From Minisyncoccota bacterium (lineage in GTDB: Bacteria > Patescibacteriota > Minisyncoccia > Phycocordibacterales > VMEP01): a DNA stretch of 64,000 bases. This document shows, one piece after another, positions 31,740 to 55,844 of this stretch (its first letter is position 1; the number at the start of each line of letters is the position of its first letter). The notes under the pieces are model-generated. The model searched no databases and had not been told where the DNA came from. It saw nothing but the letters and a program-made list of their open reading frames with translations. The translations under genes were made by a program, and so were the position numbers. The DNA is taken from NCBI GenBank assembly GCA_041661305.1, contig JBAZUR010000003.1, positions 5,103 to 69,102 on the forward strand, read 5' to 3'.

Positions 31740-32285
31740 ATGGCCAAGCAAGAAATAAATCTAGATAGAAGTTGGTACGCAATACACACGTACGCAGGAT
31801 ATGAAAACGCAGTGATGCGTAACTTAAAGCAACGCGTGGAATCGCTTGGAATGGAAGACAAGATTTTTAATATCATTGTTCCTATTGAAAAGAAAATAAA
31901 AATAAAAGGAGGGAAGCGTGTTGAGACAGAAGAAAAAATATACCCCGGATATGTTCTCGTGGACATGGTTGTAACAGATGATTCTTGGTATGTAGTGCGT
32001 AACACTCCGCGAGTGACAGGATTCGTTGGTGCAGGAACAACTCCAGTGCCACTTGATAAGGCAGAAGTTGATGGGTTGTTTGCTCGCATGAAATCTGATA
32101 CGGTGAAGCACACGATTACCTTAACCCAAGGGGAAATGGTCATTATCACCGACGGACCATTTAAAGAGCTCGAAGGGCGTGTTTCAGAGGTTGACGGTGA
32201 GCGCGGTAAGGTTAAGGTTCTTGTTTCAATGTTCGGTCGCGAAACCCCAGTAGAACTTGATTTCCTTCAGGTAAAGAAAATATAA
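31740..32285 (+). CDS. nusG: Transcription termination/antitermination factor NusG
   Basis: [17 protein letters not shown] domain and C-terminal KOW ([22 protein letters not shown]). Confidence 0.85.
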
Positions 32286-32295
32286 ATAAAATTGT

Positions 32296-32718
32296 ATGGC
32301 AAAAAAAATAACAAAAAAAATAAAGTTACAAATTGCAGCTGGTAAAGCAACCCCAGCGCCACCACTTGGACCCGCCTTGGGACAGGCTGGAGTTAATATT
32401 GGAGATTTCGTTAATAAATTTAACGACGCAACCAAAGCAAACGTAGGAGAAAAAGTTTCAGTTGTCGTACGTGTTTACGAAGACCGAACATTCGATTTCG
32501 TTGTTAAGACTCCTCCTGCAACAGGACTTATCTTAAGCGCAGCTGGTGTTGAAAAAGGTTCCGGCAAGCAGGCAGTAACAAAAGCTGGAAAGATTACAAA
32601 ACAGCAATTGCGTGAAATCGCCGAGAAAAAGATGTCAGATTTGACTGCAAACGATATCGAGGCAGCAATGAAGATAATCGAAGGTTCAGCACGTTCTGCT
32701 GGAATCGAAGTTAAGTAA
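32296..32718 (+). CDS. rplK: 50S ribosomal protein L11
   Basis: [34 protein letters not shown]. Confidence 0.9.
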
Positions 32719-32734
32719 TAATAGATTTTTAAGT

Positions 32735-32768
32735 AAAGACCGCTAAAAATAGCGGTCTTTACTTTTTG
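32735..32768 (+). terminator. Terminator (aaagaccgctaaaaatagcggtcttt + T-run)
   Basis: Inverted repeat plus T-run. Confidence 0.75.
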
Positions 32769-32836
32769 TTTCAAAGAGTATAGTTTTGTCGTAGAAGGTT
32801 CCTGTAATTTTTCAATTTTTCGAGGAGGTATATCAA

Positions 32837-33661
32837 ATGGCAAAGAGTTTTGATGAGATTTCAGTCCGCGTTCTCGCGAGCACCAAGGTTGACCGTGAAG
32901 CGGTTCGTGCATGGCTTGACGAGATGGGGGCCGATGAATTTGAAATCCCCACCGAAGATGCCGTTTCTGAGCCGGCGCTTCTTGTGGCACTTGCCGCTAA
33001 GCAATGCTACATGGCTTTCCAGCCCGGGCTCAACCCGAACGTCAACAAGGTTCGCAAGGATATGGTCGAGTATCTCGACAACGTTCTTGCGCAACGGCAC
33101 GGATCTGTACTTGAGCACTGTGTTTTCACTTTCGGTATCAACGGCTGTTCCAGGGTTTTCACTGGCGAGATGAATCGCCATCGCGCCGGTGTCGGTATTT
33201 CGGAACGGAGCATGCGATACATCCGTTATACCAACGTCCGTTTTTGGATGCCCGAGTGTTTTCGCGATGAGTCGGAAGACACGGAGAAGCTCCTTCGCAA
33301 GAAGCTGCTGAGCCGCGAGCTTCTCACCAAGGCTTTCGAGGGCGACGAGGAGATGATGGCAACGTTCGCCGACATCTGGAAGGAAGAGTTGTCGCCCGAG
33401 AGTACGTTCCATGCGAAGAAGGTTCTCACCTCGGCGTTTCGGCGTGGTATTGGCATGGGGATTGCCACTGGCGGTGTTTGGTCGCTTAACTTGCGCGCCC
33501 TTCGGCACGTGATCGCTTTGCGTACCGATGCTGGCGCCGAAGAAGAGATCGTCCACGTCTTCAAGAAAGTGGGCAAGATCATGATCGCCCAGGTGCCGGA
33601 ACTCTTCGGTGACTTCAAGGAAGTTGATGGGTCTCTCGTTCCGGAATACTGGAAGGTGTGA
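32837..33661 (+). CDS. thyX: FAD-dependent thymidylate synthase ThyX (GC-rich gene)
   Basis: ThyX signature RHRAGVGISERSMRY (RHR...S.RY) and VLEHCVFTFGINGCSRVFTGE. GC content is visibly higher than in flanking genes. Confidence 0.75.
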   Translation: MAKSFDEISVRVLASTKVDREAVRAWLDEMGADEFEIPTEDAVSEPALLVALAAKQCYMAFQPGLNPNVNKVRKDMVEYLDNVLAQRHGSVLEHCVFTFGINGCSRVFTGEMNRHRAGVGISERSMRYIRYTNVRFWMPECFRDESEDTEKLLRKKLLSRELLTKAFEGDEEMMATFADIWKEELSPESTFHAKKVLTSAFRRGIGMGIATGGVWSLNLRALRHVIALRTDAGAEEEIVHVFKKVGKIMIAQVPELFGDFKEVDGSLVPEYWKV

Positions 33662-33677
33662 TTTCGCTTGTTTGATC

Positions 33678-33711
33678 AAAAGCGGTGGCATTTGCCACCG
33701 CTTTCTTTTTT
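33678..33711 (+). terminator. Terminator (aaagcggtggcatttgccaccgcttt + T-run)
   Basis: Inverted repeat plus T-run. Confidence 0.75.
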
Positions 33712-33765
33712 ATGCACTACATGGTAAAAGTTTATTAGTTCAATTACACAGAGGGGTTCTTTCCA

Positions 33766-34871
33766 TGAATAAGGCTCAAGGCGCGCTTCCGCGCCAAAAG
33801 ATTCGCGAAATGATTGATTCCGGGATGATCACCTCTGTCACGAGAGAAGAGTTGATAAACCCAGCGTCACTTGATTTAACGCTGTCCGAAGAGGCGTTCA
33901 GGGTGACTGGTGTTTTTTTGCCGAGGCCAGGAGAAAAAGTTCGTGACCTGATAAGTCATCTGAATGTTTCGGTTCACGATCTTTCTAACCCAATGGAATG
34001 CGGAGTCTTATATCTTGTCCGCCTTGAACAGTATTTTCATTTGCCGACAATGGTCTACTCGTACTGCAACCCAAAGTCGACCACCGGCAGAAACGACCTG
34101 CATGTCAGGGTCATGGCCGATGGGGTTCCAAGTTTTGACGCAATGGCACCAGGTGGTTTTTGTGGTGAAGCCTGGGTACTCATCACTCCGAAATCTTTCC
34201 CGGTGATTCTTCCGGCGGGGGAGGCGGTTTGTCAGGCGCGTTTCTTTTTTTCCGACACACGCCTTTCGGAGTTTGAGCTCCAGAATCAGTTTGCGAGGCA
34301 TCAGCTACTTTATCATTTGGACGGCCGGCCGTATGAGTATAGCGAGATGCAAGTTCGCTACAACGACGGCTCAATCGTTCTAACACTCGATCTTTCCCAA
34401 GAAGTTGTTGGGTACGTGTGTCGTGGGTCAGGCAGTATTCTCGATTTCTCGAAAGGGAAAGCCTCGCATGATTCGGCAGATTTTTTTGAGCCAATTTATA
34501 GGCCAAAAAACGGCTATCTGCATTTGCGGCAGGGGTCTTTTCTTATCCTCTCAACCGCAGAGGCAATACACGTTCCGCCAGAGTTTGCTTGCGAAATGCG
34601 CGACATGGATTCACGAAACGGTGATTTCCGTGCGCACTACGCGGGGTACATCGATTGCGGATGGGGGCACGGAAAAGATGGCGAAGGAAAAGGGCGACCG
34701 CTTACTTTGGAAGTTCGTCCGTTTGAAGACCTCTTCGTTCGGCACGGACAACCGATAGCCAGAATCCGTTTCGAGCAAATGGCAGAAATGCCCGACCAGC
34801 ATTACGACAGCAAGCCGGTTTCAAATTACACAGTGCAGTCTGGGCCTAAACTCTCCAAGCACTTTAAATAA
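33766..34871 (+). CDS. dCTP deaminase/dUTPase-superfamily protein, apparently double-length (GC-rich)
   Basis: GYIDCGWGHG resembles the G.IDPGY.G motif of the trimeric dCTP deaminase/dUTPase fold. At about 368 aa it is roughly twice the normal length. Confidence 0.5.
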
Positions 34872-34880
34872 TAGTGATTC

Positions 34881-34915
34881 ACCACCGCACCCTAAAGGTG
34901 CGGTGGCTTTCTTTT
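34881..34915 (+). terminator. Terminator (accaccgcaccctaaaggtgcggtggc + T-run)
   Basis: Inverted repeat plus T-run. Confidence 0.75.
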
Positions 34916-34978
34916 ATATTTTGAAAGTGTTAGTTTTGTAATAGAAATTTTGTTTTTTCAATCAGGAGGAGTGCAAAA

Positions 34979-35641
34979 ATGAATCCTATTTATTGCGTTT
35001 TTGATGGACTGGATGGTTCAGGCAAGGGTCTTCAGCTGGATCTCCTCAGGGAACGTCTTGATCGCCACGGTATTCATAATGGCGAGCGGGTTGTTTTTAC
35101 TCGAGAACCTGGGGGAACGCCACTTGCGGAGGTAATTCGCGAGGTAATTCTCGGCCCACTCGCGAAGGAATCAACACCATTCAACAACATGCTCCTCTTT
35201 CTTGCCGCTCGTGAAGAGCTCATGAGAAAACTGGTGTTTCCGGCAATTTTGGCCGGAAAGTCAGTAATTTCTGACCGTGGTGATTCTTCCACTTTCGCTT
35301 TCCAGATTTACGGCGAGGAGAGGTTTGCACTGGAGGAGAGGTTTTGGCGGTTGCGCGAAGATATTTTTCGCCATTCGCCACTGCGCTCTAACGGTCCCGA
35401 CATTTACGTGTTTTTTGACCTTCCGCCCCTGGTTGCATATCAACGGATGGCGGGCGATTCGGCTCGCACGAAGACCCATTTCGACCTACGTCCGATTGAA
35501 TATCATGAGCGTGTTCGTGATGGGTTTAGTGATTTTGCGAGGCAATGTAGTACGGCAGTTATTGTCGACGCCAACCGAAAACCCGAAGAAGTTCACGAAG
35601 AGGTCTGGAGTATTGTTTCGGAAGAGCTTGGTTTGGCCTAG
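34979..35641 (+). CDS. tmk: Thymidylate kinase (GC-rich)
   Basis: P-loop FDGLDGSGKG, REPGGTPLAE, lid region. Confidence 0.8.
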   Translation: MNPIYCVFDGLDGSGKGLQLDLLRERLDRHGIHNGERVVFTREPGGTPLAEVIREVILGPLAKESTPFNNMLLFLAAREELMRKLVFPAILAGKSVISDRGDSSTFAFQIYGEERFALEERFWRLREDIFRHSPLRSNGPDIYVFFDLPPLVAYQRMAGDSARTKTHFDLRPIEYHERVRDGFSDFARQCSTAVIVDANRKPEEVHEEVWSIVSEELGLA

Positions 35642-35654
35642 AAGACAACCAAGT

Positions 35655-35692
35655 AAAAATCCGTGTTTGCCAGCTGGCGACACGGATTTTTT
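35655..35692 (+). terminator. Terminator (aaaaatccgtgt...acacggatttttt)
   Basis: Inverted repeat plus T-run. Confidence 0.7.
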
Positions 35693-35776
35693 CATGAAAT
35701 ATAATAATGTTTTGAATACACGTAAACAAAAAAAACACCGATTCTTAAAAACAATTAGTCATGCTAGAATCGCCTT

Positions 35777-37351
35777 ATGGTGATTCATTTTTTGAGAGAA
35801 AAATTAAACTATGTACTCAAAGATACTTTTCCAGAGAGTGGAGAAATTTCTTTTAATATTTCAGCAGATAATCGCTATGGTGACTACACGACCAATATTG
35901 CGATGGTGGCAAAAGCTGAAAATAAAACCTCTAAAGAAGTAGCGGAGATTTTTATTGGAAAATTAAAAGAAGATAAAGATTTTAATGAAGTCGTAAGTGA
36001 AATAAACATAGCCGGCCCTGGGTTTATAAATTTCACTCTTTCGTCTGAGGCAATATTGAAAGAACTCTCAAAAACTATAGAGGCGACAGAAAAAGGTTTT
36101 GATTTTATAAAAGACAAAAAAATAAATATTGAGTTTATTTCTGCTAATCCAACTGGTGCTTTGCATTTAGGTCATGGGCGCGGGGCTTTTTATGGAGATA
36201 GCTTGGCAAATATTTTCTCTCTCGCAGGAGGAGATGTTGTCCGTGAATATTATGTGAATGATTCTCGTGAGAGTAATCAAATCAAGGAGCTTGGCAAATT
36301 GGCTCTAGGAGTAGGGGAACAATACAAAACCGAAAAGACAATTGCGCTTATTGAGCAAAATGATTTTTTGCAGATGAGTGAAGTGGACGCTGGTTTTAAA
36401 TTAGCCACATTAATACAAAGAGAGAACAGAGATTTTGTTGAAGAAAAACTTGGAGTTCGTTTTGATGAATGGTATTCCGAAGACGGGAAACTAAGAGCTA
36501 GTGGCTCAAATCAAAAGATGTTCGATGAGCTAAAAGAGAAAAATTTTGTTTATGAAAAAGAAGGAGCTTGGTGGGCAAAAACAACTGAGTATGGCGACGA
36601 TGAAGACAGAGTCGTGCTCCGAAGTGACGGGACATTTTCTTATTTTCTTTCAGATATTTCTTATCACGCAGATAAGTTTTCTCGAAAGCACAAAGAGGTA
36701 ATTGATGTTTGGGGGGCGGATCATCACGGTCACGTAATGAGAATGATGGCTATTAAAAAAATGCTCGGTTGGGAGGGGGATTTTAAGGTTTTCATTACCC
36801 AGTTAGTTTCGCTTAAAGAAAATGGGGAAGTGGCAAAGATGTCCAAACGTGCAGGCAATGTTGTTCTGCTTGAAGATTTGGTAAATGAAATAGGCCTAGA
36901 TGTTGTGCGCTGGTTTTACAATGAGCGCGCGCTCAATACCCACATGGAGTTTGATGTCGCACTAGCGAAAGAACGCTCAGAAAAAAATCCTGTATTTTAT
37001 GTGCAATATGCGCACGCAAGAATGGCTTCCATTGTTGTAAATTGTTCCGCGCTCACTGAAAACGATACATCACTCTCTGCTGTTTTGGAGAATAAATCAG
37101 CACGTGTGCTTGCGACGAAACTGATTCAGTTTTCGGAAATGGTTGAATCAACTACAGAGGATTGTCAGGTTAACCATCTGACGACATATGCTTACGAGTT
37201 GGCCTCATTATTCTCTCAGTTTTATCGCGATGTTCGTGTTATAGAGGAAGATAAATATAATAAAGGAGCATTAGAACTTGTGCAGTCGACACGGACAGTT
37301 TTGGCAAAAACATTGGCACTTTTGGGAATCTCTGCTCCCGAGAAGATGTAA
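35777..37351 (+). CDS. argS: Arginine--tRNA ligase
   Basis: ISANPTGALHLGHGRGA (HIGH region), KMSKRAGNVV (KMSKS), C-terminal DALR anticodon-binding region. Confidence 0.9.
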   Translation: MVIHFLREKLNYVLKDTFPESGEISFNISADNRYGDYTTNIAMVAKAENKTSKEVAEIFIGKLKEDKDFNEVVSEINIAGPGFINFTLSSEAILKELSKTIEATEKGFDFIKDKKINIEFISANPTGALHLGHGRGAFYGDSLANIFSLAGGDVVREYYVNDSRESNQIKELGKLALGVGEQYKTEKTIALIEQNDFLQMSEVDAGFKLATLIQRENRDFVEEKLGVRFDEWYSEDGKLRASGSNQKMFDELKEKNFVYEKEGAWWAKTTEYGDDEDRVVLRSDGTFSYFLSDISYHADKFSRKHKEVIDVWGADHHGHVMRMMAIKKMLGWEGDFKVFITQLVSLKENGEVAKMSKRAGNVVLLEDLVNEIGLDVVRWFYNERALNTHMEFDVALAKERSEKNPVFYVQYAHARMASIVVNCSALTENDTSLSAVLENKSARVLATKLIQFSEMVESTTEDCQVNHLTTYAYELASLFSQFYRDVRVIEEDKYNKGALELVQSTRTVLAKTLALLGISAPEKM

Positions 37352-37369: not shown

Positions 37370-40300
37370 ATGGAAGAAGAAAAGAAAGAAACACAAGTTT
37401 CCCTAAACGAAAAAAGAATTCTTAAGTTTTGGAAAGAAAACCAAATTTTCGAGAAAACTTTAGAGAAAAAAACTAATGATAAGTTTGTTTTTTACGATGG
37501 GCCACCTTTTGCGACAGGGGAGCCACACTACGGACATGTTTTAGCTGGAACAATAAAAGATGCTATTCCGCGCTACCAAACAATGCGTGGTAATTATGTT
37601 CGTAGGCAATGGGGTTGGGATTGCCACGGTCTTCCAATAGAAAACTTGATTGAGCAGGAATTAAATCTTGGTCATAAAAAAGATATTGAAGAATATGGTA
37701 TCGATAAGTTTAATGGGGCGGCACAGAATGCGGTTCTTCGTTTTGATTCCAATTGGAAAGAGGTTGTTCCAAGACTCGGTCGTTTTGTGGACATGGAGCA
37801 CGCTTATAAAACAATGGATGCGACCTACACAGAATCTATTTGGTGGGCGTTTAAGACACTTCACGATAAAGGTTTTGTTTATGAGGGACATAAAATTATG
37901 TATGTTTGTCCACGTTGCGAAACACCGCTTGCTCAGTCAGAGGTAGCCGATGGCTATACAGATGTGACAGATATTTCTGTAACTGCGAAGTTTGAGTTAG
38001 TCGATGAGCCAGGGACTTATCTTTTGGCGTGGACAACGACACCATGGACATTGCCAGGGAACGTCGCGATTGCGGTGAATAAAGATATTGATTATGTAAA
38101 AGTTGAGAACGAAGGTGTGAATTATATTGTTGCGAAAGAGAGATTAGATTTTGTTTTTAAAACTACTTATAAAATAGAAAAAGAATTCAAGGGCTCTGAA
38201 CTAGTTGGCAAATCATACGTTCCAGTTTTTGATTATTATTACAACGATAAGACAATAAAAAATCACGAGAACGGCTGGAAGGTTTACCATGCTGATTTTG
38301 TGACAGCAGATAGTGGTACTGGTATTGCTCACGAAGCCCCAGCTTTTGGTGCGGAAGATATGGAGCTTGGAATTAAAGAGAAGCTTCCTTTTGTTCAGCA
38401 CATTTCAATGAACGGACAGTTTAAGTCTGAGGTAAAAGATTTTGCTGGTAGCTATGTTAAACAAAAAGGGGATACTCAATCTGCTGATATAGAGATAATT
38501 AAACACCTTGCTCAAAAAGGAACCCTATTTTCAAAAGAAAAAATTGTTCACTCGTACCCACTTTGTTGGCGATGCGAAACTCCGCTTTTGAACTACGCTT
38601 CTAGTTCGTGGTTTATTGAAGTGACTAAATTTAAAGATAAACTCGTTCTAGAAAATAAAAAAGTTCATTGGGTGCCTGAGGCAATCGGCGCAAATCGTTT
38701 TGGTAAGTGGCTTGAATCAGCACGGGATTGGGCGGTATCCCGCGCTCGCTTTTGGGGAGCGCCAATTCCAGTGTGGAAATGTGAGAAATGCGAGAAGCCG
38801 GTTGTGGTCGGCTCTCTTTCGGATATTAAAAAAATGTCTCCACTCTCGCAAAATAAATATTTTGTAATAAGGCACGGGCAGGCAGAGAGCAATGTGAGTG
38901 GAACGCCAAAAACGAAAGAAAGTGATGTTGATAATCTAACCGAGAAGGGAATAAGTCAGGTTAAAGAAAGTGCGCATTCTTTAGAGAAAGAAAATATTGA
39001 TTTGATTATCTCGTCTCCACTTATGCGCACTCGGCAAACTGCTACGGTTCTTGCCGAAGAGCTTGGTTTGAAAAACGAAGATGTTGTTTTTGATCCACGA
39101 TTGGCTGAAATTAACGTCGGCGCGTTTAATGGAAAAACCACCGCAGAGTATCATGGATATTTTTCTTCTTTGGAAGAGAAGTTTATTAAAAAAGCACCAG
39201 AAGGTGAGAGTTTGCAGGATTTAAAGAAAAGAGTTTTTGAGGCTGTTTCAGAAGCGGAGGAAAAATATGAAGGAAAAAATATTTTGATTGTTACCCATGA
39301 ATATACAGCGTGGATGCTTTTCACAATGGCAAAGGGGTTGTCGATTAGTGAGTCAGTTAAAATGAAACAAGAAAGAGGAGATGACTTCTTAAAAAATGCA
39401 GGAGTAGAAGAAATGGTTTTTGAGTCTATACCACGAAACAAAGAAGGTGATCTTGATTTTCATCGACCGTATATTGATGAAGTAAAACTAAATTGTGAAT
39501 GTGGTGGAAAAATGAATCGAGTGCTCGAAGTTTTCGATTGCTGGTTTGAGTCTGGTTCAATGCCATACGCTCAGTTTCATTATCCTTTTGAAAATAAGGA
39601 TGAGTTTAAGAATAATTTTCCTGCGGATTTTATCGCTGAAGGTTTGGATCAAACACGAGGGTGGTTTTACACACTATTGGTTTTAAGCACAGCTCTTTTT
39701 GGAAAAGCGCCGTTTAAGAACGTGATTGTGAATGGGATGGTGATGGCCGAAGACGGCAAGAAAATATCTAAGCGCCTAAAAAATTATCCTGACCCAATTG
39801 CTGTTGTAGAAAAATATGGAGCAGACGCACTTCGATATTATTTGCTTTCCTCTCCGATTATGCGCGCTGAGGATTTGAATCTTTCCGAAGCTGGTATTTC
39901 TGAGATATATAGAAAGATTATTGTTCGCCTTGAAAATGTTTATTCTTTTTATGCGTTGTATGCCGATGAAACTATTGAAGCAAGCGATAGAAGTAAGAAT
40001 GTTTTGGATTTGTGGATTCTCGCGAGATTAAACGAACTTAAAAACGAAGTGACCGAAGGGATGGATAAATATGAGATTGATAGGGCAACAAGACCGATTA
40101 ACGACTTCATAGAAGATTTGTCGACTTGGTATATTCGCCGTTCTCGCGAACGCTTTAAGAATGATGAAAACCCTGATGATAAAAAGGTTGCTTTAGAAAC
40201 AACCCTGTTTGTGTTGAAAGAATTGTCTAAAGTTCTTGCCCCATTTACACCTTTTGTGGCGGAAGATTTATATCAAAAAATTAAAACCGATAAAGACAAA

Positions 40301-40831
40301 GAAAGTGTTCATTTGGAGAAATGGCCAGAAGGGGGGTCTGTTGATAAAAATCTGATTGAGAAAATGCTCAATACAAGAAGAATTGTTGAACAAGCACTTG
40401 CTCTACGTGCTTCGTATGCGATTAAAGTTAGACAACCGCTATCTTTACTTGAAGTATCATCTCAGGATGGTGAATTTTTTGATGAATTAATTAAAGATGA
40501 AGTAAACGTTAAGGAGGTTGTTGTTAAAGAATCACACGAAAAAGGTTCTATGATGCTTAGTAATGAGATCACCCCCGAACTAAAAGAAGAGGGGCAGATG
40601 CGTGAATTTATTCGTGCGGTACAAGAGCTAAGGAAGAAGGAAAAACTAAACCCCAAAGATATTGTTATCTTGCAAATTGTGACAGAGGAAATGGGTAAAA
40701 ATCTTGTGAATAAGTGGCTGAACCAAATTAAGCAAACAGCAACAGTAAAAGAAGTTGAGTTTTTGGCTGATGTCGATGGTGAAAAAGTTTCTTTTGATGA
40801 GATGTCTTTTGTCTTAAGGTTGGTTAGATAA
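37370..40831 (+). CDS. ileS: Isoleucine--tRNA ligase (type 2) with an internal histidine-phosphatase-like domain insertion
   Basis: PPFATGEPHYGHVLAGT (HIGH), WDCHGLP, KISKRLKN (KMSKS-like), zinc knuckles. A RHGQAESN...IVTHEY segment is embedded at about nt 38851-39450. Confidence 0.9.
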   Translation: MEEEKKETQVSLNEKRILKFWKENQIFEKTLEKKTNDKFVFYDGPPFATGEPHYGHVLAGTIKDAIPRYQTMRGNYVRRQWGWDCHGLPIENLIEQELNLGHKKDIEEYGIDKFNGAAQNAVLRFDSNWKEVVPRLGRFVDMEHAYKTMDATYTESIWWAFKTLHDKGFVYEGHKIMYVCPRCETPLAQSEVADGYTDVTDISVTAKFELVDEPGTYLLAWTTTPWTLPGNVAIAVNKDIDYVKVENEGVNYIVAKERLDFVFKTTYKIEKEFKGSELVGKSYVPVFDYYYNDKTIKNHENGWKVYHADFVTADSGTGIAHEAPAFGAEDMELGIKEKLPFVQHISMNGQFKSEVKDFAGSYVKQKGDTQSADIEIIKHLAQKGTLFSKEKIVHSYPLCWRCETPLLNYASSSWFIEVTKFKDKLVLENKKVHWVPEAIGANRFGKWLESARDWAVSRARFWGAPIPVWKCEKCEKPVVVGSLSDIKKMSPLSQNKYFVIRHGQAESNVSGTPKTKESDVDNLTEKGISQVKESAHSLEKENIDLIISSPLMRTRQTATVLAEELGLKNEDVVFDPRLAEINVGAFNGKTTAEYHGYFSSLEEKFIKKAPEGESLQDLKKRVFEAVSEAEEKYEGKNILIVTHEYTAWMLFTMAKGLSISESVKMKQERGDDFLKNAGVEEMVFESIPRNKEGDLDFHRPYIDEVKLNCECGGKMNRVLEVFDCWFESGSMPYAQFHYPFENKDEFKNNFPADFIAEGLDQTRGWFYTLLVLSTALFGKAPFKNVIVNGMVMAEDGKKISKRLKNYPDPIAVVEKYGADALRYYLLSSPIMRAEDLNLSEAGISEIYRKIIVRLENVYSFYALYADETIEASDRSKNVLDLWILARLNELKNEVTEGMDKYEIDRATRPINDFIEDLSTWYIRRSRERFKNDENPDDKKVALETTLFVLKELSKVLAPFTPFVAEDLYQKIKTDKDKESVHLEKWPEGGSVDKNLIEKMLNTRRIVEQALALRASYAIKVRQPLSLLEVSSQDGEFFDELIKDEVNVKEVVVKESHEKGSMMLSNEITPELKEEGQMREFIRAVQELRKKEKLNPKDIVILQIVTEEMGKNLVNKWLNQIKQTATVKEVEFLADVDGEKVSFDEMSFVLRLVR

Positions 40832-40832
40832 C

Positions 40833-41423
40833 ATGTCTTATCACAGATACACAACGGAAAGTATTGTTTTAGGGGGAATGAATTTAGGAGAAGCGAATAG
40901 GTTGTTTTATCTTTTAACAAAAGATTTTGGATTGATTTTCGCGACAGCACAAGGAGTTAGGTTAGATAAATCAAAACTGAGATATCGCTTGCAGGATTTT
41001 TCTAGATGCAATGTTGATTTGGTTTTTGGGAAGAATACTTGGAGGGTGGTAGACGCTCTTCCTGTTTCAGAGAAATTTTCATTCCTTGAATATGGGGCAT
41101 TAAAGACAAAAGTTCTTGCGCGTATTTTCTCACTTACGCGCAGGCTTTTGCACGGGGAAGAACGCAACTTGCCGTTGTTTGAAGAAATTAATAGATTCGT
41201 TGATTTGATAAAAGAAAAAAACTTTAATCTTAGTGACTTACTTTTACTTGAAGGAGTTATGGCTGGGCGTATTCTTAAACACCTTGGTTACTGGGGTAAA
41301 GAAAGTGTTCCCGCTGAAATATTTGAAGGGGTTATAGATGAAGAAAAGATTAAATTGGCGTCGCTTTCAAAAAATAAGTTATTCAAAGAAATCAATAAGT
41401 CTCTCAAGGAGACGCATTTGTAG
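40833..41423 (+). CDS. recO: DNA repair protein RecO-like
   Basis: N-terminal OB-fold pattern (ESIVLGGMNLGEANRLFYLLTKDFGLIFATAQG). Weak. Confidence 0.45.
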   Translation: MSYHRYTTESIVLGGMNLGEANRLFYLLTKDFGLIFATAQGVRLDKSKLRYRLQDFSRCNVDLVFGKNTWRVVDALPVSEKFSFLEYGALKTKVLARIFSLTRRLLHGEERNLPLFEEINRFVDLIKEKNFNLSDLLLLEGVMAGRILKHLGYWGKESVPAEIFEGVIDEEKIKLASLSKNKLFKEINKSLKETHL

Positions 41424-41442: not shown

Positions 41443-43365
41443 ATGTCAGAAAATAAGGATTTTAGTACTATTGATCGTATCGCAAAGAAGCTTTACAGCC
41501 CCTCGGCCCAAGGGAAAAGTTTTATTCGCCCAGGGGTTCTCAAAGAGAAAAGTTATGGAATAAATAATGAGTGGGCAGAGGAAGAGGTTGGAGTAGAAGA
41601 GACCGCTGTTGTAGAAGATAAAAAACCACCATCTATGTTTAAAAGAATATTTTTAGGGTCATTAATTTTTTTTGTAATTTCCGCTGTTTACGCCGGTTAC
41701 ACTTTTTTTGTTGGAGGAAATATTGTTTCTTCAAAAAATATCGATATTGAAATTGCAGGACCGTCATTTGTTGCTGGGGGAGAAGAGCTTGCACTTCAGG
41801 TCGTTGTTCGAAATGGAAATGCCACTCCGCTTGAGCTTGCGGATTTGCTCATTGAGTATCCAAAAGGTGCTGGGGCGGGAGATACAGAAGACGTTGAGCG
41901 CCTTAGAGATACACTTGGAGAAATAAGGTCTGGTGGATCAATCGAAAGAATAGAACGATTTAAGCTTTTTGGAGAAGAAGGTGGAGATAAAGAAATAAAA
42001 TTTACTCTTGAATACAGAATCGCTGGTTCTAACGCAGTGTTCACAAAAGAAACTAGTTACAAGGTCCGCATAAGCACGGCTCCCGTTAGTCTTTTGGTTG
42101 ATGCTCCAGAGGAAGGAAGCGATAACCAGGATTTTAAGTTTAGCGTAAAAGCATCTTCAAATTCGGAAGAGGGGGTAAGTAATCTTTTATTGAGAATTGA
42201 ATATCCAGCCGGGTTTGATTATAAGAGCGCTGAACCAAAACCAACTTTTGGTAATAATGTCTGGCGTATCGGAGATCTCAATAAAGGGGGCTCCAAAGAA
42301 ATATCAGTACTTGGCGTTATTCGTGGACAGGACGGGGAAGAAAGAACATTTCGTATTTATACTGGAGAGCAAGACACTAGAGATGAACAAAAAATAGGAG
42401 TAGTTTATAATTCCGCATTTCAATCAGTTCTAATTAAGCGCCCGTTTTTAAGCGCACAGCTTTTGGTGAATGGTAAAGAGGGAAGCACTATCTCTGTGTC
42501 ACCGCGCAATGTGGTGCAGAGCGAGATTATTTGGAAAAACAATCTTCCAACTAAAATTATGAATGCTCGCGTTGAAGTCGTGTTTACTGGTGATTCAGTA
42601 GATTCATCGACAATTATTGCTGACCGTGGATTTTATAATTCAGGAAACAATACTATTAGTTGGGATAGAAATAGCTTAAACGAACTTAGAGAAATACAGC
42701 CTGGTGATGGCGGTCGCATGAGTTTCTCTTTTTCTCCAAAATCAATATCTTCTGGTGATTATTCTCCAAATAAAGAAATCACTGTTTCAGTAAATGTTTA
42801 CGGGGAGTTTTTCGATACCTCTATGGGTGGTGGACAAACTGTTTCATCTCAAGCAAAAACTATAATTAAGATTAGTTCTGATTTTCAAGTTACGCCAAGG
42901 GCTTTGTATTACGGAGCTCCATTTAGTAACGAAGGGAAGCTACCCCCACAAGTTGGAGAAGAAACAACCTACGCTATTGTTCTGACTGCGGTGAATTCAA
43001 CCAATAGAATTTCTCGTGCGGTTGTTAAGACAACATTACCCTCATATATTCGTTTTGTTGGCGTGGTGTATCCAGAGAGCGAACAAGTGACGTTTAACGA
43101 CAAAACTGGAGAGGTTGTTTGGAATATCGGTTCAATAGAATCAGGTGTTGGTTTTACGAAACCGGTGAAGGAGGTTTCCTTTAAGATTGGATTCCGACCA
43201 TCGCTTGGGCAAGTCGGAAGAAATGCTCCTTTGACTGGGGTTGTAACCTATAGTGGCAATGATGAGTTTACTGGAAATGATGTGTCTGGTTCGATTCCAG
43301 CCCTAACTACTACCCTAAATAGCGACCAAGCATTTAAGCGGGGAGATGATATAATCGTCAAATAA
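41443..43365 (+). CDS. Large hypothetical membrane-anchored extracellular protein (possible CARDB/DUF11-like beta-sandwich repeats)
   Basis: N-terminal transmembrane segment FKRIFLGSLIFFVISAVYAGYTFF. Repeated beta-rich segments. Confidence 0.45.
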   Translation: MSENKDFSTIDRIAKKLYSPSAQGKSFIRPGVLKEKSYGINNEWAEEEVGVEETAVVEDKKPPSMFKRIFLGSLIFFVISAVYAGYTFFVGGNIVSSKNIDIEIAGPSFVAGGEELALQVVVRNGNATPLELADLLIEYPKGAGAGDTEDVERLRDTLGEIRSGGSIERIERFKLFGEEGGDKEIKFTLEYRIAGSNAVFTKETSYKVRISTAPVSLLVDAPEEGSDNQDFKFSVKASSNSEEGVSNLLLRIEYPAGFDYKSAEPKPTFGNNVWRIGDLNKGGSKEISVLGVIRGQDGEERTFRIYTGEQDTRDEQKIGVVYNSAFQSVLIKRPFLSAQLLVNGKEGSTISVSPRNVVQSEIIWKNNLPTKIMNARVEVVFTGDSVDSSTIIADRGFYNSGNNTISWDRNSLNELREIQPGDGGRMSFSFSPKSISSGDYSPNKEITVSVNVYGEFFDTSMGGGQTVSSQAKTIIKISSDFQVTPRALYYGAPFSNEGKLPPQVGEETTYAIVLTAVNSTNRISRAVVKTTLPSYIRFVGVVYPESEQVTFNDKTGEVVWNIGSIESGVGFTKPVKEVSFKIGFRPSLGQVGRNAPLTGVVTYSGNDEFTGNDVSGSIPALTTTLNSDQAFKRGDDIIVK

Positions 43366-43366
43366 T

Positions 43367-44689
43367 ATGGCAGACAACAAGAAAGAAGATGGTCTCATGG
43401 AAAAAATTGTGTCGCTTTGTAAGCGACGCGGTTTTATATATCAAGGCTCAGAAATATACGGAGGCCTTGCGGGGACTTGGGATTACGGCCCACTTGGTGT
43501 CGCTCTAAAACGAAATATTACGAATTTGTGGTGGAAGAGGTTTGTTGAGGAAAAGGAAAATATGTACGGTATTGATGCAGCCATTTTGATGAACCCCAAA
43601 GCATGGGAATCCTCCGGACATTTATCTGGTTTTTCTGACCCGCTTGTTGAGTGTGAGAAATGTAAAAAAAGATTTCGTGCAGATACTTTGGAGGATAGGG
43701 AAAAGTGTCCAGAATGCAGTGGAAAGCTTGGTGGAGAAAGGCAATTTAATATGATGTTTAAGACAAACATCGGAGCAACAGAGGACGAATCTTCCGCAGT
43801 TTATCTTCGCCCAGAAACTGCTGGCGGAATGTTTGTTAATTTTAAGAATGTTGTTGATAGTTTCCACCCAAGACTTCCTTTTGGAACAGCGCAAATCGGG
43901 AAGGCATTTCGAAACGAAATTGCTCCTAGAGATTTTATTTTTCGTGTGAGGGAGTTGGAGCAAATGGAGATTGAATATTTTGTTAAGCCAGACGAATGGA
44001 AAGATTCGTTTGAAAAGTTTCGTCTAGAGATGAAAGATTGGATTAGGGAAGTTGGTATAAAAGAAGATAGTGTCCACGAGCTTGAGGTGGGCGATGGTGA
44101 CCGTGCACATTATTCAAAAAGAACAATTGATTTTGAATTTGATTTTCCTTTTGGTAGAAAAGAGCTTTATGGTTTAGCCTATCGCACTGACTTTGATTTG
44201 AGTGCACATACAAAGGGTAGTGGTACTGATTTGTCATATTATGATGAAGAAACAAAAGAAAGATTTACCCCACACGTTATTGAGCCTTCGTTTGGTGTCG
44301 AGCGTACGGTACTTGCGGTTCTTTCAAGTGCTTATACAGAAGATGAGCTTGGCGGTGAGACACGCGCTTATTTAAAGTTGCCTCCAAATATCTCCCCGAC
44401 CTTAGTTGCAGTATTTCCACTCTTGAAAAACAAACCAGAGCTTGTTAAAAAAGCGGAGGAGGTTTACATGATGCTTAAAAAAGATTTTTCTCGTGTTTCT
44501 TTTGACGACAACGGTAATATTGGTAAACGTTATCGCAGACAAGATGAAATCGGCACTCCTTTTTGTGTGACTATAGATTTTGACACTTTAGAGGATGATA
44601 CCGTGACAATTCGTAATCGTGATACTGGAGAACAAGAGCGTGTTTTAATCACGGAATTAGTAAGCAAAATCGGAAGCTCGATTAATTAA
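43367..44689 (+). CDS. glyQS: Glycine--tRNA ligase (alpha2 dimeric type)
   Basis: YQGSEIYGGLAGTWDYGPLGV, class II motifs, C-terminal anticodon-binding domain. Confidence 0.85.
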   Translation: MADNKKEDGLMEKIVSLCKRRGFIYQGSEIYGGLAGTWDYGPLGVALKRNITNLWWKRFVEEKENMYGIDAAILMNPKAWESSGHLSGFSDPLVECEKCKKRFRADTLEDREKCPECSGKLGGERQFNMMFKTNIGATEDESSAVYLRPETAGGMFVNFKNVVDSFHPRLPFGTAQIGKAFRNEIAPRDFIFRVRELEQMEIEYFVKPDEWKDSFEKFRLEMKDWIREVGIKEDSVHELEVGDGDRAHYSKRTIDFEFDFPFGRKELYGLAYRTDFDLSAHTKGSGTDLSYYDEETKERFTPHVIEPSFGVERTVLAVLSSAYTEDELGGETRAYLKLPPNISPTLVAVFPLLKNKPELVKKAEEVYMMLKKDFSRVSFDDNGNIGKRYRRQDEIGTPFCVTIDFDTLEDDTVTIRNRDTGEQERVLITELVSKIGSSIN

Positions 44690-44695: not shown

Positions 44696-46345
44696 CTATT
44701 CAGGCTTTTTGTTTTTAGAAAGACAATATATTTCATTAGCAAAAGTTGGCAGAAATATTCTACCTGTTGTTTTGTTGAATGCTATTTTATCTGTAATTCT
44801 TTCTGTGGCCTGGAAAAATGCTGTGTTTTTTCCTGTTTTAAGATCGAGTTCATAAAGTCTTCCATCGTTTGATCCGATGTAAACACTGTCGTCGATTATT
44901 TCTGGGGAAGAAAAAATTCTGGCATTTGTTTTGAATTTCCAAACAACCACTCCTTTATCTAAGTCTATGCAGTACAGACTTTTATCAAGAGAGGATACAT
45001 AAGCAAAGCCGTCATTAACTGTAGGGGTAGAAAATATTGCCTCATCCGTTTTTATTTTATGAATTAGCTTGCCGGTCTTAGTTTCTAAAACGTATACACA
45101 TGAATCAAATGAACCAAAGACAACAACCCCAAGTTTTTCATCGAAGGAAAATGACCCCTTTATTTCACCCTCCGTCTTAAATGTCCAAAGAAGTTTTCCT
45201 GTTTTAACATCAAGACCATATACCGAAAAATCATTACACCCACAAATCACTATTCCTAGTTTAGAAGAATAAGCAGGTGAAGATTGAGTAAAATCAGACA
45301 TTGAGAACTCCCACATTTTTTCCCCCGAAGAAGAATCTAGGGCAACAAGGGCTCCTTGTTTTTTCCATAAACCAAACTCAAGACCGACAAAAATTGCACC
45401 GATGTCCTCTGCAATACAAGGAGATGACCCAATCCAGTCTGCTTCTAAGAAAACCCATTTTCTTTTGCCAGTAGAGGAATTAAGTGCGTAAAAATTACCA
45501 TCATTAGCCCCAAAATAAACAACATCTTTATAAACAACAGGGGAAGAGAAGGCCTTTCTTTTCTGAGCCCCTAATAAAATTTTATAATCCCAAACAGCCT
45601 TTCCGTCTATTTGGTTTAACGCCCAAAATACTCCATTGTCTCCGCCGAAATAAATTTTTTCTTTATCAACAGCTGGCGCTGATTTTGCGGTAACTAGGAA
45701 ATAGTTTGGTTTTTCACTTTTAAAATACCAGTCAATCTTAAAAGGAGTAGGAACGGGAAGCTCGGTCTTATCAATCAAATTAGAAACACCAAGCGAGCCC
45801 CCAAAGTCTTCAAGGGTAAAAAGGGAAATAATTTTTATTCCTCGTTCCGTGAGATAGGAGTAATATGGTAAATCTCGAAACCTTAAAATAACAAAAACAG
45901 CGCTTACTTTTTTACCAAGTGATTCAATAACCTCAATTTGCCGAATAAAACTTTTGCCACTATTAATAATATCGTCAACCAAAATAATTTTATCGTTGGA
46001 AATTTCACCCTCAATCATTCGAAGAAGGCCACTTTTTTTACGAGACTTTCGTATAAAAAATCCATTAGATATTTTATTTTTTTCCCTTACTTTTAAAACA
46101 AACGCTGTTATGAGAGGGATTGAAGCAACCTCGATACCGCCAATTTGAAAGGGATGTTCGTTTTTAAATTTTTCCCAAAATAATTCACTTACTATATTGA
46201 GAATTTCCGCACCAAGAAGTACTTTTCTAAAATCAAAAATCCAATCAGTTTCTGTGCCGTTTTGATCAACACTCCTTGCTTCTTTTTTTGTTATGAAGAC
46301 CTCTTTTTCTATTACTTCTTTAAGTTTTAATTGTGACGATTCCAT
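44696..46345 (-). CDS. Fusion protein: N-terminal type I phosphoribosyltransferase domain plus C-terminal PQQ-like beta-propeller
   Basis: PRTase PRPP-binding motif ILVDDIINSGKSF. The C-terminal half has repeated YxGxxDGxxYALxxxTGKxxW blades (BamB/PQQ-like). Confidence 0.6.
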   Translation of the reverse strand: MESSQLKLKEVIEKEVFITKKEARSVDQNGTETDWIFDFRKVLLGAEILNIVSELFWEKFKNEHPFQIGGIEVASIPLITAFVLKVREKNKISNGFFIRKSRKKSGLLRMIEGEISNDKIILVDDIINSGKSFIRQIEVIESLGKKVSAVFVILRFRDLPYYSYLTERGIKIISLFTLEDFGGSLGVSNLIDKTELPVPTPFKIDWYFKSEKPNYFLVTAKSAPAVDKEKIYFGGDNGVFWALNQIDGKAVWDYKILLGAQKRKAFSSPVVYKDVVYFGANDGNFYALNSSTGKRKWVFLEADWIGSSPCIAEDIGAIFVGLEFGLWKKQGALVALDSSSGEKMWEFSMSDFTQSSPAYSSKLGIVICGCNDFSVYGLDVKTGKLLWTFKTEGEIKGSFSFDEKLGVVVFGSFDSCVYVLETKTGKLIHKIKTDEAIFSTPTVNDGFAYVSSLDKSLYCIDLDKGVVVWKFKTNARIFSSPEIIDDSVYIGSNDGRLYELDLKTGKNTAFFQATERITDKIAFNKTTGRIFLPTFANEIYCLSKNKKPE

Positions 46346-53604: not shown

Positions 53605-54336
53605 ATGAGACCATTTTTATATAAATTTTTTCACAGGTTAACTAAAGATAAAACAGAGGGTGGTTTAATAAAAATTCCTGCTGATATGGCAATGTGGCCA
53701 GAAAGTTGGAAAATTGTGGAGTACAAAAAAATTTCTTTTTTTGATCCAATAAAACTTGCGGATAACGTAGACACAAAACTTTTTGAAATTCTGCAAAAAA
53801 GAACATCTGACCGTAAGTCACTATCTAGTAATGTTGTTACGTTAGAAAAAATATCAAAAATATTAAAGTGTGCTTGTGGAGAAATAAAAAGGAAAGATGG
53901 ATCCACGCACAGAACGGCCCCGTCTGGTGGTGGCAGGTATTCAATTGAATTGTATTTTTTGCTATTTAAAGAGGCTGAAGGGTTAAAGACCGGTGTGTAT
54001 CATTATGGTGTAGAGAATCATCAGCTTGAATTGATTGAACAAAAAAATTTTTCAGAAGAAGACATACTTTCTTACCAAAGCGACAAATGGGCGACTGTTG
54101 GTAGTGGTATGATGTGCATGACCAGTGTTTTTGATCGTTTTGCGCGCAAATATGGCAGTCGGGGGTATCGTTATATGTTATTAGAAGCCGGGCACATTGG
54201 TCAGAATATATTGCTCTCTGGTGTAGAAAATGATTTGGTTTTTGTACCAATTGGGTCGTCTAATGATGTAAGAGTAGAATCACTACTTAAAATAGACGGC
54301 AATAGCGAGAGCCTGGTCTACGCGATGTCTTTTTAA
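53605..54336 (+). CDS. SagB-type dehydrogenase (nitroreductase-family, McbC-like) of TOMM biosynthesis
   Basis: RTSDRKS, APSGGGRYSIELY, YRYMLLEAGHIGQNILL. These are typical of FMN-dependent SagB/McbC dehydrogenases. Confidence 0.75.
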   Translation: MRPFLYKFFHRLTKDKTEGGLIKIPADMAMWPESWKIVEYKKISFFDPIKLADNVDTKLFEILQKRTSDRKSLSSNVVTLEKISKILKCACGEIKRKDGSTHRTAPSGGGRYSIELYFLLFKEAEGLKTGVYHYGVENHQLELIEQKNFSEEDILSYQSDKWATVGSGMMCMTSVFDRFARKYGSRGYRYMLLEAGHIGQNILLSGVENDLVFVPIGSSNDVRVESLLKIDGNSESLVYAMSF

Positions 54337-54340
54337 TTTT

Positions 54341-55798: not shown

Positions 55799-55844
55799 TT
55801 ATTAAATTTGTTTTCATTTTTGCCTAAAAAATAAAAGTAACTTC

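What the first reader, a model, noticed from the sequence alone, without database searches (positions are those of the whole stretch)
38851..39450. Histidine-phosphatase (PGAM-like, RHG motif) domain inserted inside isoleucyl-tRNA synthetase
The 1153-aa IleS has normal HIGH and KMSKS regions and zinc knuckles. Between the WKCEKCEKPVV zinc motif and the ...DLDFHRPYIDEVKLNCECGGKM segment it carries a ~200-aa insertion. The insertion begins YFVIRHGQAESNVSG and contains ...NILIVTHEYTAWMLF. These are the catalytic RHG and downstream His motifs of the phosphoglycerate-mutase / histidine-phosphatase superfamily. An intact phosphatase fold embedded in an aminoacyl-tRNA synthetase is not a standard architecture. 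It could act on a nucleotide or sugar-phosphate, or provide a moonlighting or regulatory activity.
Basis: seen in the sequence. Interest (0 to 1): 0.65.

Follow-up and report, generated by a model that had tools for sequence, protein, structure and literature searches.

The report
Active phosphatase domain nested inside IleRS
The isoleucyl-tRNA synthetase of this Parcubacteria-type bacterium carries a complete, apparently active histidine-phosphatase enzyme looped out of one of its surface subdomains; relatives encode the same phosphatase as a separate gene just upstream of ileS, and I found no paper describing this pairing.

Summary
ORF 37370-40831 (+) encodes one 1153-aa type-2 IleRS with intact HIGH, KMSKS and editing motifs. 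Residues ~491-694 form a complete His_Phos_1 domain (Pfam E=1.8e-37) inserted in the CP3 subdomain, where canonical IleRS has a loop of about 7-10 residues. AlphaFold models are confident (full length pLDDT 91; insert alone 95). The insert resembles small phosphomonoesterases (PspA, GpgP, PhoE).

It is not an artefact. At least 80 species-level Patescibacteria genomes and all 120 best database hits have the same single ORF. The catalytic residues R501, H502, R553, E613, R621 and H643 are invariant, and E580 is conserved apart from two Asp. dN/dS is 0.04-0.14.

New here: insert-less relatives encode the closest free-standing phosphatase (about 190 aa) between argS and ileS, in the same gene order as the window. 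The free and embedded states never co-occur. Embedded lineages are polyphyletic. Other IleRS carry active-looking copies at three further sites, and one ValRS-like fragment carries four.

The substrate is unknown. The domain fails the dPGM, CobC, PspA and SixA thresholds. No paper describing this was found. Verdict: a new variant of a known kind, interest 0.7.

The parts
37370..40831 (+). ileS: single 1153-aa ORF, a type-2 (eukaryote/archaeal-like) isoleucyl-tRNA synthetase with a nested phosphatase domain
   Evidence: ORF; TIGR00392 896.8 bits (cut-off 621.4); best matches IleRS2 8c8u/8c8v, yeast and human IleRS, 1ile; AF2 pLDDT 91.1, pTM 0.85
37526..37537 (+). HIGH signature (HYGH, aa 53-56)
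   Evidence: H53, G55 and H56 invariant in 120 sequences
37952..38569 (+). CP1 editing domain (aa ~195-400) with WTTTPWT (221) and GTGIAH (316) motifs
   Evidence: PDB editing-domain hits 1wk8/1ue0
38765..38839 (+). N-terminal half of CP3: beta-hairpin with the CxxC zinc knuckle (C471, C474) and helix 483-489
   Evidence: CP3 definition; Tth CP3 carries a Zn motif. The cysteines are kept in only ~65% of 81 homologues
38840..39451 (+). Nested histidine-phosphatase (His_Phos_1) domain plus short linkers, aa ~491-694; Pfam core aa 498-667 = nt 38861-39370
38870..38878 (+). R501-H502-G503 (RHG; H502 is the predicted phospho-accepting nucleophile)
   Evidence: R and H 81/81, G 80/81; kept in free homologues too
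39026..39028 (+). R553, second phosphate-pocket arginine
   Evidence: 81/81
39107..39109 (+). E580, predicted general acid (RLxE...G motif)
   Evidence: 79 E + 2 D of 81. The role is assigned from established knowledge of the His_Phos_1 family
39296..39298 (+). H643, second catalytic histidine
   Evidence: 81/81
39452..39529 (+). C-terminal half of CP3: DLDFHRPYID and the CxC half of the zinc knuckle (C709, C711)
39761..39775 (+). KMSKS-type loop (KISKR, aa 798-802)
   Evidence: K798 and K801 invariant
40007..40447 (+). Anticodon-binding domain (aa 880-1026)
   Evidence: PF08264 E=2.1e-32
40550..40819 (+). C-terminal DUF5915-type domain of type-2 IleRS (aa 1061-1150)
   Evidence: PF19302 E=1.6e-12
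35777..37351 (+). argS, ending 18 nt upstream of ileS. In relatives the free phosphatase gene sits in this gap
40833..41423 (+). recO-like gene, conserved downstream neighbour
41443..43365 (+). DUF11/CLIPPER-type 640-aa protein, conserved downstream neighbour

Best explanation
The gene encodes one bifunctional polypeptide. The host is an ordinary, functional type-2 IleRS. A complete histidine-phosphatase domain (about 200 aa, PhoE/PspA/GpgP-like small phosphomonoesterase fold) is looped out of the variable CP3 subdomain, between the two halves of its zinc knuckle.

Shown: the domain is intact, folds on its own, keeps every catalytic residue, and is under purifying selection as strong as that on the synthetase core. 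It is the counterpart of a free ~190-aa phosphatase that insert-less relatives encode in the argS-[phosphatase]-ileS-recO operon. A locus has either the free gene or the nested domain, never both.

Inferred: IleRS charges tRNA-Ile as usual. The nested domain hydrolyses a phosphomonoester through a phospho-His502 intermediate, with R501, R553, N508 and H643 forming the phosphate pocket and E580 acting as the acid. Nesting fixes a 1:1 ratio and co-localisation of a phosphatase that was already co-expressed with IleRS.

The substrate is not identified. A small metabolite (sugar-, glycerate-, amino-acid- or nucleotide-phosphate) is the most likely class, because the nearest solved relatives are all small-molecule phosphatases.
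For: Domain identity and boundaries:
- define the domain and its boundaries.
- Autonomous fold: insert-only model pLDDT 95.3, pTM 0.92. Within the full-length model the insert has pLDDT 90-97.
- Foldseek best hits are PspA 4ij5/4ij6, mycobacterial hydrolase 6s2q, GpgP 4pz9, riboflavin HFP 9mmh and PhoE 1h2e, TM 0.70-0.76.

Selection:
- R501, H502, S549, R553, E613, R621 and H643 are 81/81; G503 80/81; N508 79/81; E580 79 E + 2 D.
- dN/dS of the insert is 0.04-0.14 in unsaturated pairs, against 0.05-0.08 for the core.
- Mean pairwise identity is 0.42, between the anticodon domain (0.48) and the C-terminal domain (0.32).

Not an artefact:
- One ORF in 80/80 species-level genomes.
- All 120 best full-length hits carry PF00300.

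Host intact:
- HIGH, KISKR and editing motifs are present.
- IleS equivalog score 897 vs cut-off 621.
- Foldseek TM 0.79-0.84, normalised by target length, to IleRS2.

Origin and linkage:
- A free phosphatase 36-43% identical to the insert lies between argS and an insert-less ileS in L082, L083 and L139.
- The same holds in 41 of 47 free-form metagenome loci. The other six contigs end within 0.65 kb of the phosphatase gene.
- The 80 embedded loci keep ArgS>IleS>RecO>CLIPPER and never have an extra free copy.

Insertion site:
- The site is CP3, a subdomain with variable topology that carries a zinc motif in T. thermophilus.
Against: - No biochemical data exist and no substrate can be named.
Whether the phosphatase active site faces the synthetase active site, the tRNA or bulk solvent is therefore unknown.
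- The repeated appearance of the domain at four different internal sites of IleRS, and in a ValRS-like protein, suggests more than passive co-expression. A simple N-terminal fusion would be mechanically far easier but was not seen.
- Conserved gene order could partly reflect shared ancestry within one class rather than functional coupling.
Confidence: 0.75

Rival explanations
1. The nested or adjacent domain is the 'missing' phosphoglycerate mutase, or another core-metabolic phosphatase, of Parcubacteria. It does housekeeping carbon metabolism and merely rides on an abundant essential protein, with no chemical link to translation.
For: Jaffe et al. [quoted passage not shown] The insert's top NCBIfam hit is the short archaeal dPGM model NF038349. 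One free homologue is labelled 'probable phosphoglycerate mutase' by JGI. Extra copies per polypeptide would fit a dosage need. No PGM gene lies in the 64-kb window, which is weak evidence because the window is only part of the genome.
Against: The insert scores far below the dPGM thresholds: NF038349 91.6 vs 225, and TIGR01258 32.9 vs 81.7 with only the N-terminal 100 model positions aligned. At about 200 aa it lacks the C-terminal half and tail of canonical dPGM. By my reading, from memory of E. coli GpmA, the residues after the catalytic Glu (E-I-N-V-G) lack the R/H-Y substrate-binding motif. The nearest solved structures are phosphatases rather than mutases. A UGA-recoded genome also keeps the domain. 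That recoding is typical of Gracilibacteria and Absconditabacteria (from memory), and one complete Gracilibacteria genome is reported to lack glycolysis entirely, but the lineage of this genome was not established.
Confidence: 0.17
2. The phosphatase is a dedicated accessory of class Ia synthetases. It acts on something produced or bound by the enzyme: a 2'/3'- or 5'-phosphate on tRNA, AMP or PPi, or a phosphorylated by-product or inhibitor. Tethering places it next to its substrate.
For: The free and nested states are mutually exclusive and both stay attached to ileS. Embedded lineages are polyphyletic. Catalytically complete copies sit at three further sites of IleRS (P0339, P0295, P0275), and a protein scoring best as ValS has four. 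The domain always occupies internal surface loops and never the N-terminus, even though the free gene ends only ~12-90 nt before the ileS start.
Against: No member of this superfamily branch is known (from memory) to act on tRNA ends, adenylates or PPi. The yeast IleRS-tRNA paper mentions CP3 only in its domain list and describes no tRNA contact for it. The four sites are spread over the enzyme, so they cannot all reach one substrate site. The ValS-like example is a 2x-coverage contig with an in-frame stop.
Confidence: 0.2
3. The insert is a catalytically dead relic that now serves only as a structural or regulatory (ligand-sensing) module of IleRS.
For: Nested domains in synthetases are often non-catalytic. 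In P0295 the CP3 copy has RHA instead of RHG, and P0275_a has Q at the E613 and R621 positions, so some copies do drift.
Against: In the window and in 80 homologues the nucleophile His, both Arg, the acid Glu and the second His are all invariant or nearly so. dN/dS is low. Free-standing orthologues keep the same set.
Confidence: 0.04
4. The feature is an assembly chimera or a frameshift artefact: really two or three genes.
For: Fragmented versions exist in databases: L081 is in four ORFs, and L086 is in pieces under table 11.
Against: The window ORF is uninterrupted. All 80 independent genomes give one ORF. L086 becomes one 1197-aa ORF when UGA is read as sense. L081 lies on a long contig with the pieces in order, which I read as indel errors, not verified. 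The AF2 model is confident across both junctions.
Confidence: 0.01

Closest known systems
Type-2 (eukaryote/archaeal-like) bacterial IleRS, e.g. Priestia megaterium IleRS2 (8c8u) and Thermus thermophilus IleRS (1ile)
   Same: Same domain order, HIGH/KMSKS motifs, CP1 editing motifs, CP3 zinc knuckle (as in Tth) and DUF5915-type C-terminus. Sequence E=1e-226 and Foldseek TM up to 0.84, normalised by target length.
   Different: About 200 extra residues forming a whole enzyme domain sit inside CP3, where these enzymes have a loop of about 7-10 residues.
Small histidine phosphatases of His_Phos_1: H. thermophilus PspA (4ij5), M. tuberculosis GpgP Rv2419c (4pz9), G. stearothermophilus PhoE (1h2e), riboflavin-pathway HFP (9mmh), CobC
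   Same: Same fold, size and catalytic set (RHG, second Arg, Glu, second His). TM 0.70-0.76 at 20-28% identity.
   Different: The insert is below every equivalog threshold. The segment after RHGxxxN differs from the usual R-x-Q-G pattern (my reading against the family consensus). It is nested in, or operon-linked to, a synthetase. Substrate unknown.
IleRS with a nested GNAT acetyltransferase (NCBIfam NF040702 ileS_w_GNAT)
   Same: This is precedent that Patescibacteria-type IleRS hosts a foreign enzyme domain in a connective-peptide region. One protein (P0131) has both a GNAT in CP1 and the phosphatase in CP3.
   Different: Different guest domain and different site. The window protein has no GNAT and scores 315 vs the 1999 cut-off.
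M. tuberculosis Rv2228c-type bifunctional RNase H / acid phosphatase (NF005567)
   Same: A CobC-like His_Phos_1 domain is fused to a nucleic-acid enzyme. The insert scores 89 bits to its phosphatase half.
   Different: That is an end-to-end fusion, not a nested one, with a different partner. The score is below its cut-off of 326.
Appended domains of eukaryotic aminoacyl-tRNA synthetases (e.g. UNE-I of IleRS)
   Same: Lineage-specific accretion of extra modules on a synthetase without loss of charging function.
   Different: Those are mostly terminal, non-catalytic interaction modules. This one is internal, bacterial and retains a full catalytic site.

Membership tests
His_Phos_1 (PF00300), histidine phosphatase superfamily branch 1 | Profile score above the Pfam gathering threshold | tested here: met
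   129.4 bits vs 21.7, E=1.8e-37, profile positions 2-171 of 194
His_Phos_1 (PF00300), histidine phosphatase superfamily branch 1 | Catalytic set: RHG nucleophile motif, second Arg, Glu acid, second His | tested here: met
   R501, H502, G503, R553, E580 and H643 are present and invariant or nearly so in 81 sequences and in 47 free homologues
His_Phos_1 (PF00300), histidine phosphatase superfamily branch 1 | Alpha/beta phosphoglycerate-mutase-like fold | tested here: met
   AF2 pLDDT 95.3; Foldseek probability 1.00 to many solved members
His_Phos_1 (PF00300), histidine phosphatase superfamily branch 1 | Phosphatase or mutase activity via a phospho-histidine intermediate | not testable with these tools
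   Needs an enzyme assay
Cofactor-dependent phosphoglycerate mutase (TIGR01258 pgm_1; NF038349 dPGM_arch) | Score above the curated cut-off over the full model length | tested here: not met
   32.9 vs 81.7 with only model positions 3-100 of 245 aligned; 91.6 vs 225
Alpha-ribazole phosphatase CobC (TIGR03162) | Equivalog cut-off | tested here: not met
   90.9 vs 162.9
Phosphoserine phosphatase PspA (NF045917) | Equivalog cut-off | tested here: not met
   72.4 vs 350, although PspA is the closest solved structure
Phosphohistidine phosphatase SixA (TIGR00249) | Equivalog cut-off | tested here: not met
   35.7 vs 74.5, N-terminal part only
Isoleucine--tRNA ligase (TIGR00392) | Equivalog cut-off | tested here: met
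   896.8 vs 621.4 in two stretches on either side of the insert
Isoleucine--tRNA ligase (TIGR00392) | HIGH and KMSKS signatures and CP1 editing motifs | tested here: met
   HYGH 53-56, KISKR 798-802, WTTTPWT 221, GTGIAH 316; invariant in the family
Type-2 IleRS | Closest to eukaryote/archaeal-like IleRS; C-terminal DUF5915 domain instead of the bacterial Zn-binding domain | tested here: met
   Type-2 hits score 703-760 bits; type-1 hits (1ffy, 8c9e) score 305-318 bits. PF19302 is present. Domain description
Mupirocin-resistance IleRS MupA/MupB (NF000257/NF000258) | Exception-model cut-off of 1900 | tested here: not met
   714.5 and 765.7 bits
IleRS with nested GNAT (NF040702) | Cut-off of 1999 and presence of a GNAT domain | tested here: not met
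   315.5 bits; no acetyltransferase Pfam hit
Intein or mobile insertion | Hint or homing-endonuclease domains, or splice-junction residues | tested here: not met
   The only Pfam hit in the insert is His_Phos_1. The insert is homologous over its whole length to a free cellular enzyme

The most novel reading that the evidence does not exclude
Histidine-phosphatase domains are a recurrently recruited catalytic accessory of class Ia synthetases in Patescibacteria: IleRS at four different sites, and possibly ValRS. Under this reading they act on a translation-linked phosphorylated substrate such as a tRNA terminal phosphate or an adenylate-derived product. That would be a previously unrecognised kind of synthetase-associated activity, first encoded as a trans-acting operon partner and then captured in cis.
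Probability: 0.2. Interest if true: 0.9.

Novelty: new variant of a known kind. Interest (0 to 1): 0.7.

Why it matters
Aminoacyl-tRNA synthetases with extra domains are mainly a eukaryotic theme, and the extra parts are usually terminal and non-catalytic. This case differs in several ways:
- A bacterial IleRS carries a whole second enzyme inside its catalytic-domain insertion, conserved across a very large uncultivated clade.
- There is a visible evolutionary series: free operon partner, nested domain, then multiple nested copies at other sites.
- The series links this phosphatase family to IleRS, even though its substrate is unknown.

It also gives a concrete candidate for the phosphoglycerate mutase reported as missing from some Parcubacteria. 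Finally, it flags an annotation problem: PGAP names these proteins only 'class I tRNA ligase family protein', and pathway surveys would not see an enzyme hidden inside ileS.

Tried and rejected
- **Frameshift or two ORFs:** rejected.
- **Fragmented database versions (P0014, P0016, P0019):** these are not natural split genes. L081 is probably indel errors, and L086 is a UGA-recoded genome that reads as one ORF under table 25.
- **Intein or mobile element:** no supporting domain.
- **Membership in dPGM, CobC, PspA, SixA, MupA/B or ileS_w_GNAT:** all below cut-offs.
- **Literature:** searches on IleRS or aaRS with histidine phosphatase, His_Phos_1, CPR, or Parcubacteria with phosphoglycerate mutase found no description. 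One search led to the missing-PGM remark.
- **Polarising free versus nested state with NJ trees:** these gave clear polyphyly but no unique history. The shared C-side linker in all nested lineages conflicts with simple independent capture (note 7). No ML tree program was available.
- **Scanning the whole window for a PGM or glycolytic gene:** none found, which is uninformative for the whole genome.
Full report
**Observation.** The window holds one uninterrupted 1153-aa ORF at 37370-40831 (+).
- Pfam finds tRNA-synt_1 split in two, His_Phos_1 at aa 498-667 (E=1.8e-37, 129 bits against a cut-off of 21.7), Anticodon_1 and DUF5915.
- NCBIfam's IleS equivalog is passed (897 vs 621 bits) in two stretches on either side of the insert.
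- Against solved type-2 IleRS, query residues 490->694 correspond to 477->485 of P. megaterium IleRS2 and 492->498 of human IleRS.
- Insert-less relatives give the same junctions...GSxxELxxx | DLHRPYID....
- The insert is therefore aa ~491-694, nt 38840-39451.

**Where it sits.** The literature defines CP3 as the subdomain that links CP2 to the second half of the Rossmann fold. Its topology varies between IleRSs, and it carries a zinc motif in T. thermophilus.
- The window's C471/C474 and C709/C711 form that knuckle, and the phosphatase is looped out between its two halves.
- These cysteines are kept in only ~65% of homologues, so the zinc site itself is dispensable in the family.

**Structure.**
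- The full-length AlphaFold2 model, built from a 120-sequence alignment, has pLDDT 91.1 and pTM 0.85, with the insert at 90-97. It matches IleRS2 8c8u/8c8v and yeast IleRS.
- The insert alone has pLDDT 95.3 and pTM 0.92.
- The insert matches small histidine phosphatases at TM 0.70-0.76: PspA 4ij5/4ij6, mycobacterial hydrolase 6s2q, GpgP 4pz9, riboflavin HFP 9mmh and PhoE 1h2e.
- It is therefore an autonomous, complete domain.

**Not an artefact, and lineage-wide.**
All 80 are Patescibacteria/Parcubacteria-type MAGs, at 38-52% identity.
- In all 80 the gene is a single ORF.
- All 120 best full-length database hits (54-94% identity) carry PF00300. The nearest named one is Parcubacteria LiPW_30.
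- Fragmented versions are explained by likely indel errors in L081 or by UGA recoding. L086 becomes one 1197-aa ORF under table 25.

**Selection.**
- Across the window plus 80 homologues, R501, H502, S549, R553, E613, R621 and H643 are invariant. G503 is 80/81, N508 is 79/81, and E580 is 79 E plus 2 D.
- Mean pairwise identity of the insert is 0.42. This is lower than the Rossmann parts (0.63-0.69) but comparable to the anticodon domain (0.48) and above the C-terminal domain (0.32).
- In pairs that are not saturated, dN/dS of the insert is 0.04-0.14, against 0.05-0.08 for the core.
- A catalytically dead relic is therefore very unlikely.

**Origin: an operon neighbour.**
- The closest free-standing proteins (P0013, P0017, P0018; ~190 aa; 36-43% identical to the insert over its whole length) are encoded directly between argS and an insert-less ileS. 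The order argS-phosphatase-ileS-recO-CLIPPER-class II aaRS reproduces the window's gene order (window neighbours).
- A metagenome scan with this free family returned 51 loci: three nested, one too short, and 47 free.
- In 41 of the 47 free loci, ileS follows on the same strand. The other six contigs end within 0.65 kb of the phosphatase gene. ArgS precedes wherever upstream sequence exists.
- The downstream IleS is 33-55% identical to the window's, so the linkage spans deep divergence.
- Conversely, all 80 nested loci keep ArgS>IleS(N)>HP>IleS(C)>RecO>CLIPPER and none has a second, free copy.
- The free family is large: 1189 proteins at E<1e-10 among the candidates scored.

**One event or several?**
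- NJ trees of the IleS core (919 columns) never recover the nested forms as one clade (0 of 200 bootstraps). L071 groups with the free-form lineages L132/L134 (99%), and L126/L130 group with L117/L119/L122.
- The phosphatase tree agrees. The nested domain of L071 is 51% identical to the free protein of L132 but at most 41% to the main nested clade. L126 is 51% identical to L111 against at most 43%.
- Lineage-specific motifs and an indel are shared across the two states.
- This points to at least three separate free<->nested transitions at the same CP3 loop.
- Against simple independent capture, all nested lineages share a C-side linker (F-x-x-L/F-P-x-N...LD-L/F-HRP) that their insert-less relatives lack.
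- That linker may be an ancestral CP3 loop, because 1ILE aligns over nearly the same length as the HP-deleted window CP3. Recombination or gene conversion may also be involved. I leave this open (note 7).

**Recurrence at other sites.** Independent evidence comes from other proteins in the 1.84-billion-representative search.
- P0339, a complete ORF in L141, has no CP3 copy. It has one domain in the HYPFEN...FPADF loop (window-equivalent aa 740/750) and one in the linker before the anticodon domain (aa 866/874).
- P0295, a complete ORF in L142, has a CP3 copy and a copy at the aa 866/874 site.
- P0275 has a CP3 copy and a copy at the ~aa 745 site.
- P0209 scores best as ValS (411 bits against 199 for IleS) and has four copies. 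It comes from a 2x-coverage contig with an in-frame TAA, so it needs confirmation.
- Nearly all these copies keep the full catalytic set.

**What it is not.** The insert falls below the curated cut-offs of dPGM (TIGR01258 32.9 vs 81.7 with only the N-terminal 100 positions aligned; NF038349 91.6 vs 225), CobC (90.9 vs 162.9), PspA (72 vs 350) and SixA (36 vs 74.5). It is a member of the superfamily but of no characterised subfamily.

**Mechanism.**
- Shown: a functional-looking IleRS, a functional-looking phosphomonoesterase domain, and genetic coupling in cis or in the operon.
- Inferred from the established chemistry of His_Phos_1: H502 is transiently phosphorylated. R501, R553, N508 and H643 bind the phosphate. 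E580 protonates the leaving group.
- Most likely (0.75, covering anatomy and evolution): the domain is a small-molecule phosphatase that was already co-expressed with IleRS and is now carried on CP3, a permissive surface subdomain.
- Rival 1 (0.17): it is the phosphoglycerate mutase that Jaffe et al. reported missing in some Parcubacteria.
- Rival 2 (0.2): it acts on a synthetase-linked substrate. This is suggested by the recurrent internal insertions and the ValRS-like case. However, CP3 is mentioned only in the domain list of the yeast IleRS-tRNA paper, with no tRNA contact described.
- Dead-relic and artefact readings are effectively excluded.

**Novelty.** Seven literature searches aimed at this architecture found no description of it. 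The sequences have long been public, with PF00300 precomputed on them, but PGAP names them only 'class I tRNA ligase family protein'. NCBIfam already recognises a different nested enzyme in IleRS (ileS_w_GNAT), and one protein has both guests. I rate this a new variant of a known kind, with interest 0.7.

Noticed in passing
L141:4034-8173 (P0339), L142:1932-6191 (P0295), P0275: Other IleRS carry catalytically complete His_Phos domains at different sites: the HYPFEN..FPADF loop (window-equivalent aa 740/750) and the linker before the anticodon domain (aa 866/874). These occur with or without a CP3 copy, giving two copies per protein.
   Followed up: partly
L143/L144:366-3851 (P0209): A protein that scores best as valine-tRNA ligase (411 bits vs 199 for IleS) contains four His_Phos domains. 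The contig has 2x coverage and an in-frame TAA inside the fourth domain, so this needs confirmation.
   Followed up: partly
P0131 (1325 aa): An IleRS with two guest enzymes: a GNAT acetyltransferase at aa 285-415 inside the CP1 editing domain, and the His_Phos domain in CP3. NCBIfam has a dedicated model, ileS_w_GNAT (NF040702).
   Followed up: partly
L086:4423-8013 (GCA_027024305.1) and L087: All genes look fragmented under table 11, but IleS plus the phosphatase reads as one 1197-aa ORF with UGA as sense (table 25 or 4). The architecture therefore also occurs in a recoded Patescibacteria genome. This copy lacks the CP3 cysteines and has a deletion around the GES motif.
   Followed up: partly
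L081:4337-7857: On a 733-kb contig the same IleS plus phosphatase is split into four consecutive ORFs. This is probably long-read indel error rather than a natural split gene.
   Followed up: no
L132, L134, L122 (insert-less IleS, CP3 region): A 20-30-aa low-complexity insertion (K/S/N-rich) lies between the two cysteines of the CP3 CxxC knuckle. This is further evidence that CP3 tolerates insertions.
   Followed up: no
window 53605-56651: A nitroreductase-family gene, a YcaO cyclodehydratase and a TPR protein lie in a row, followed by ORFs with no Pfam hit. This could be an azoline/RiPP-type cluster.
   Followed up: no
window 44696-46345 (-): A 549-aa protein combines a phosphoribosyltransferase domain with a PQQ/BamB-like beta-propeller, an unusual fusion.
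   Followed up: no
window 32001-36000: GC content is 0.46-0.475, against ~0.39 for the rest of the window. The stretch covers thyX, a dCTP-deaminase-like gene and thymidylate kinase, just upstream of argS, and may be a laterally acquired block.
   Followed up: no
window 35777-37351, 37370-40831, 43367-44689, 58989-60575: Four aminoacyl-tRNA synthetase genes lie within 25 kb: ArgS, IleS, a class II enzyme with an HGTP anticodon domain, and MetS. Six tRNA genes lie elsewhere in the window.
   Followed up: no
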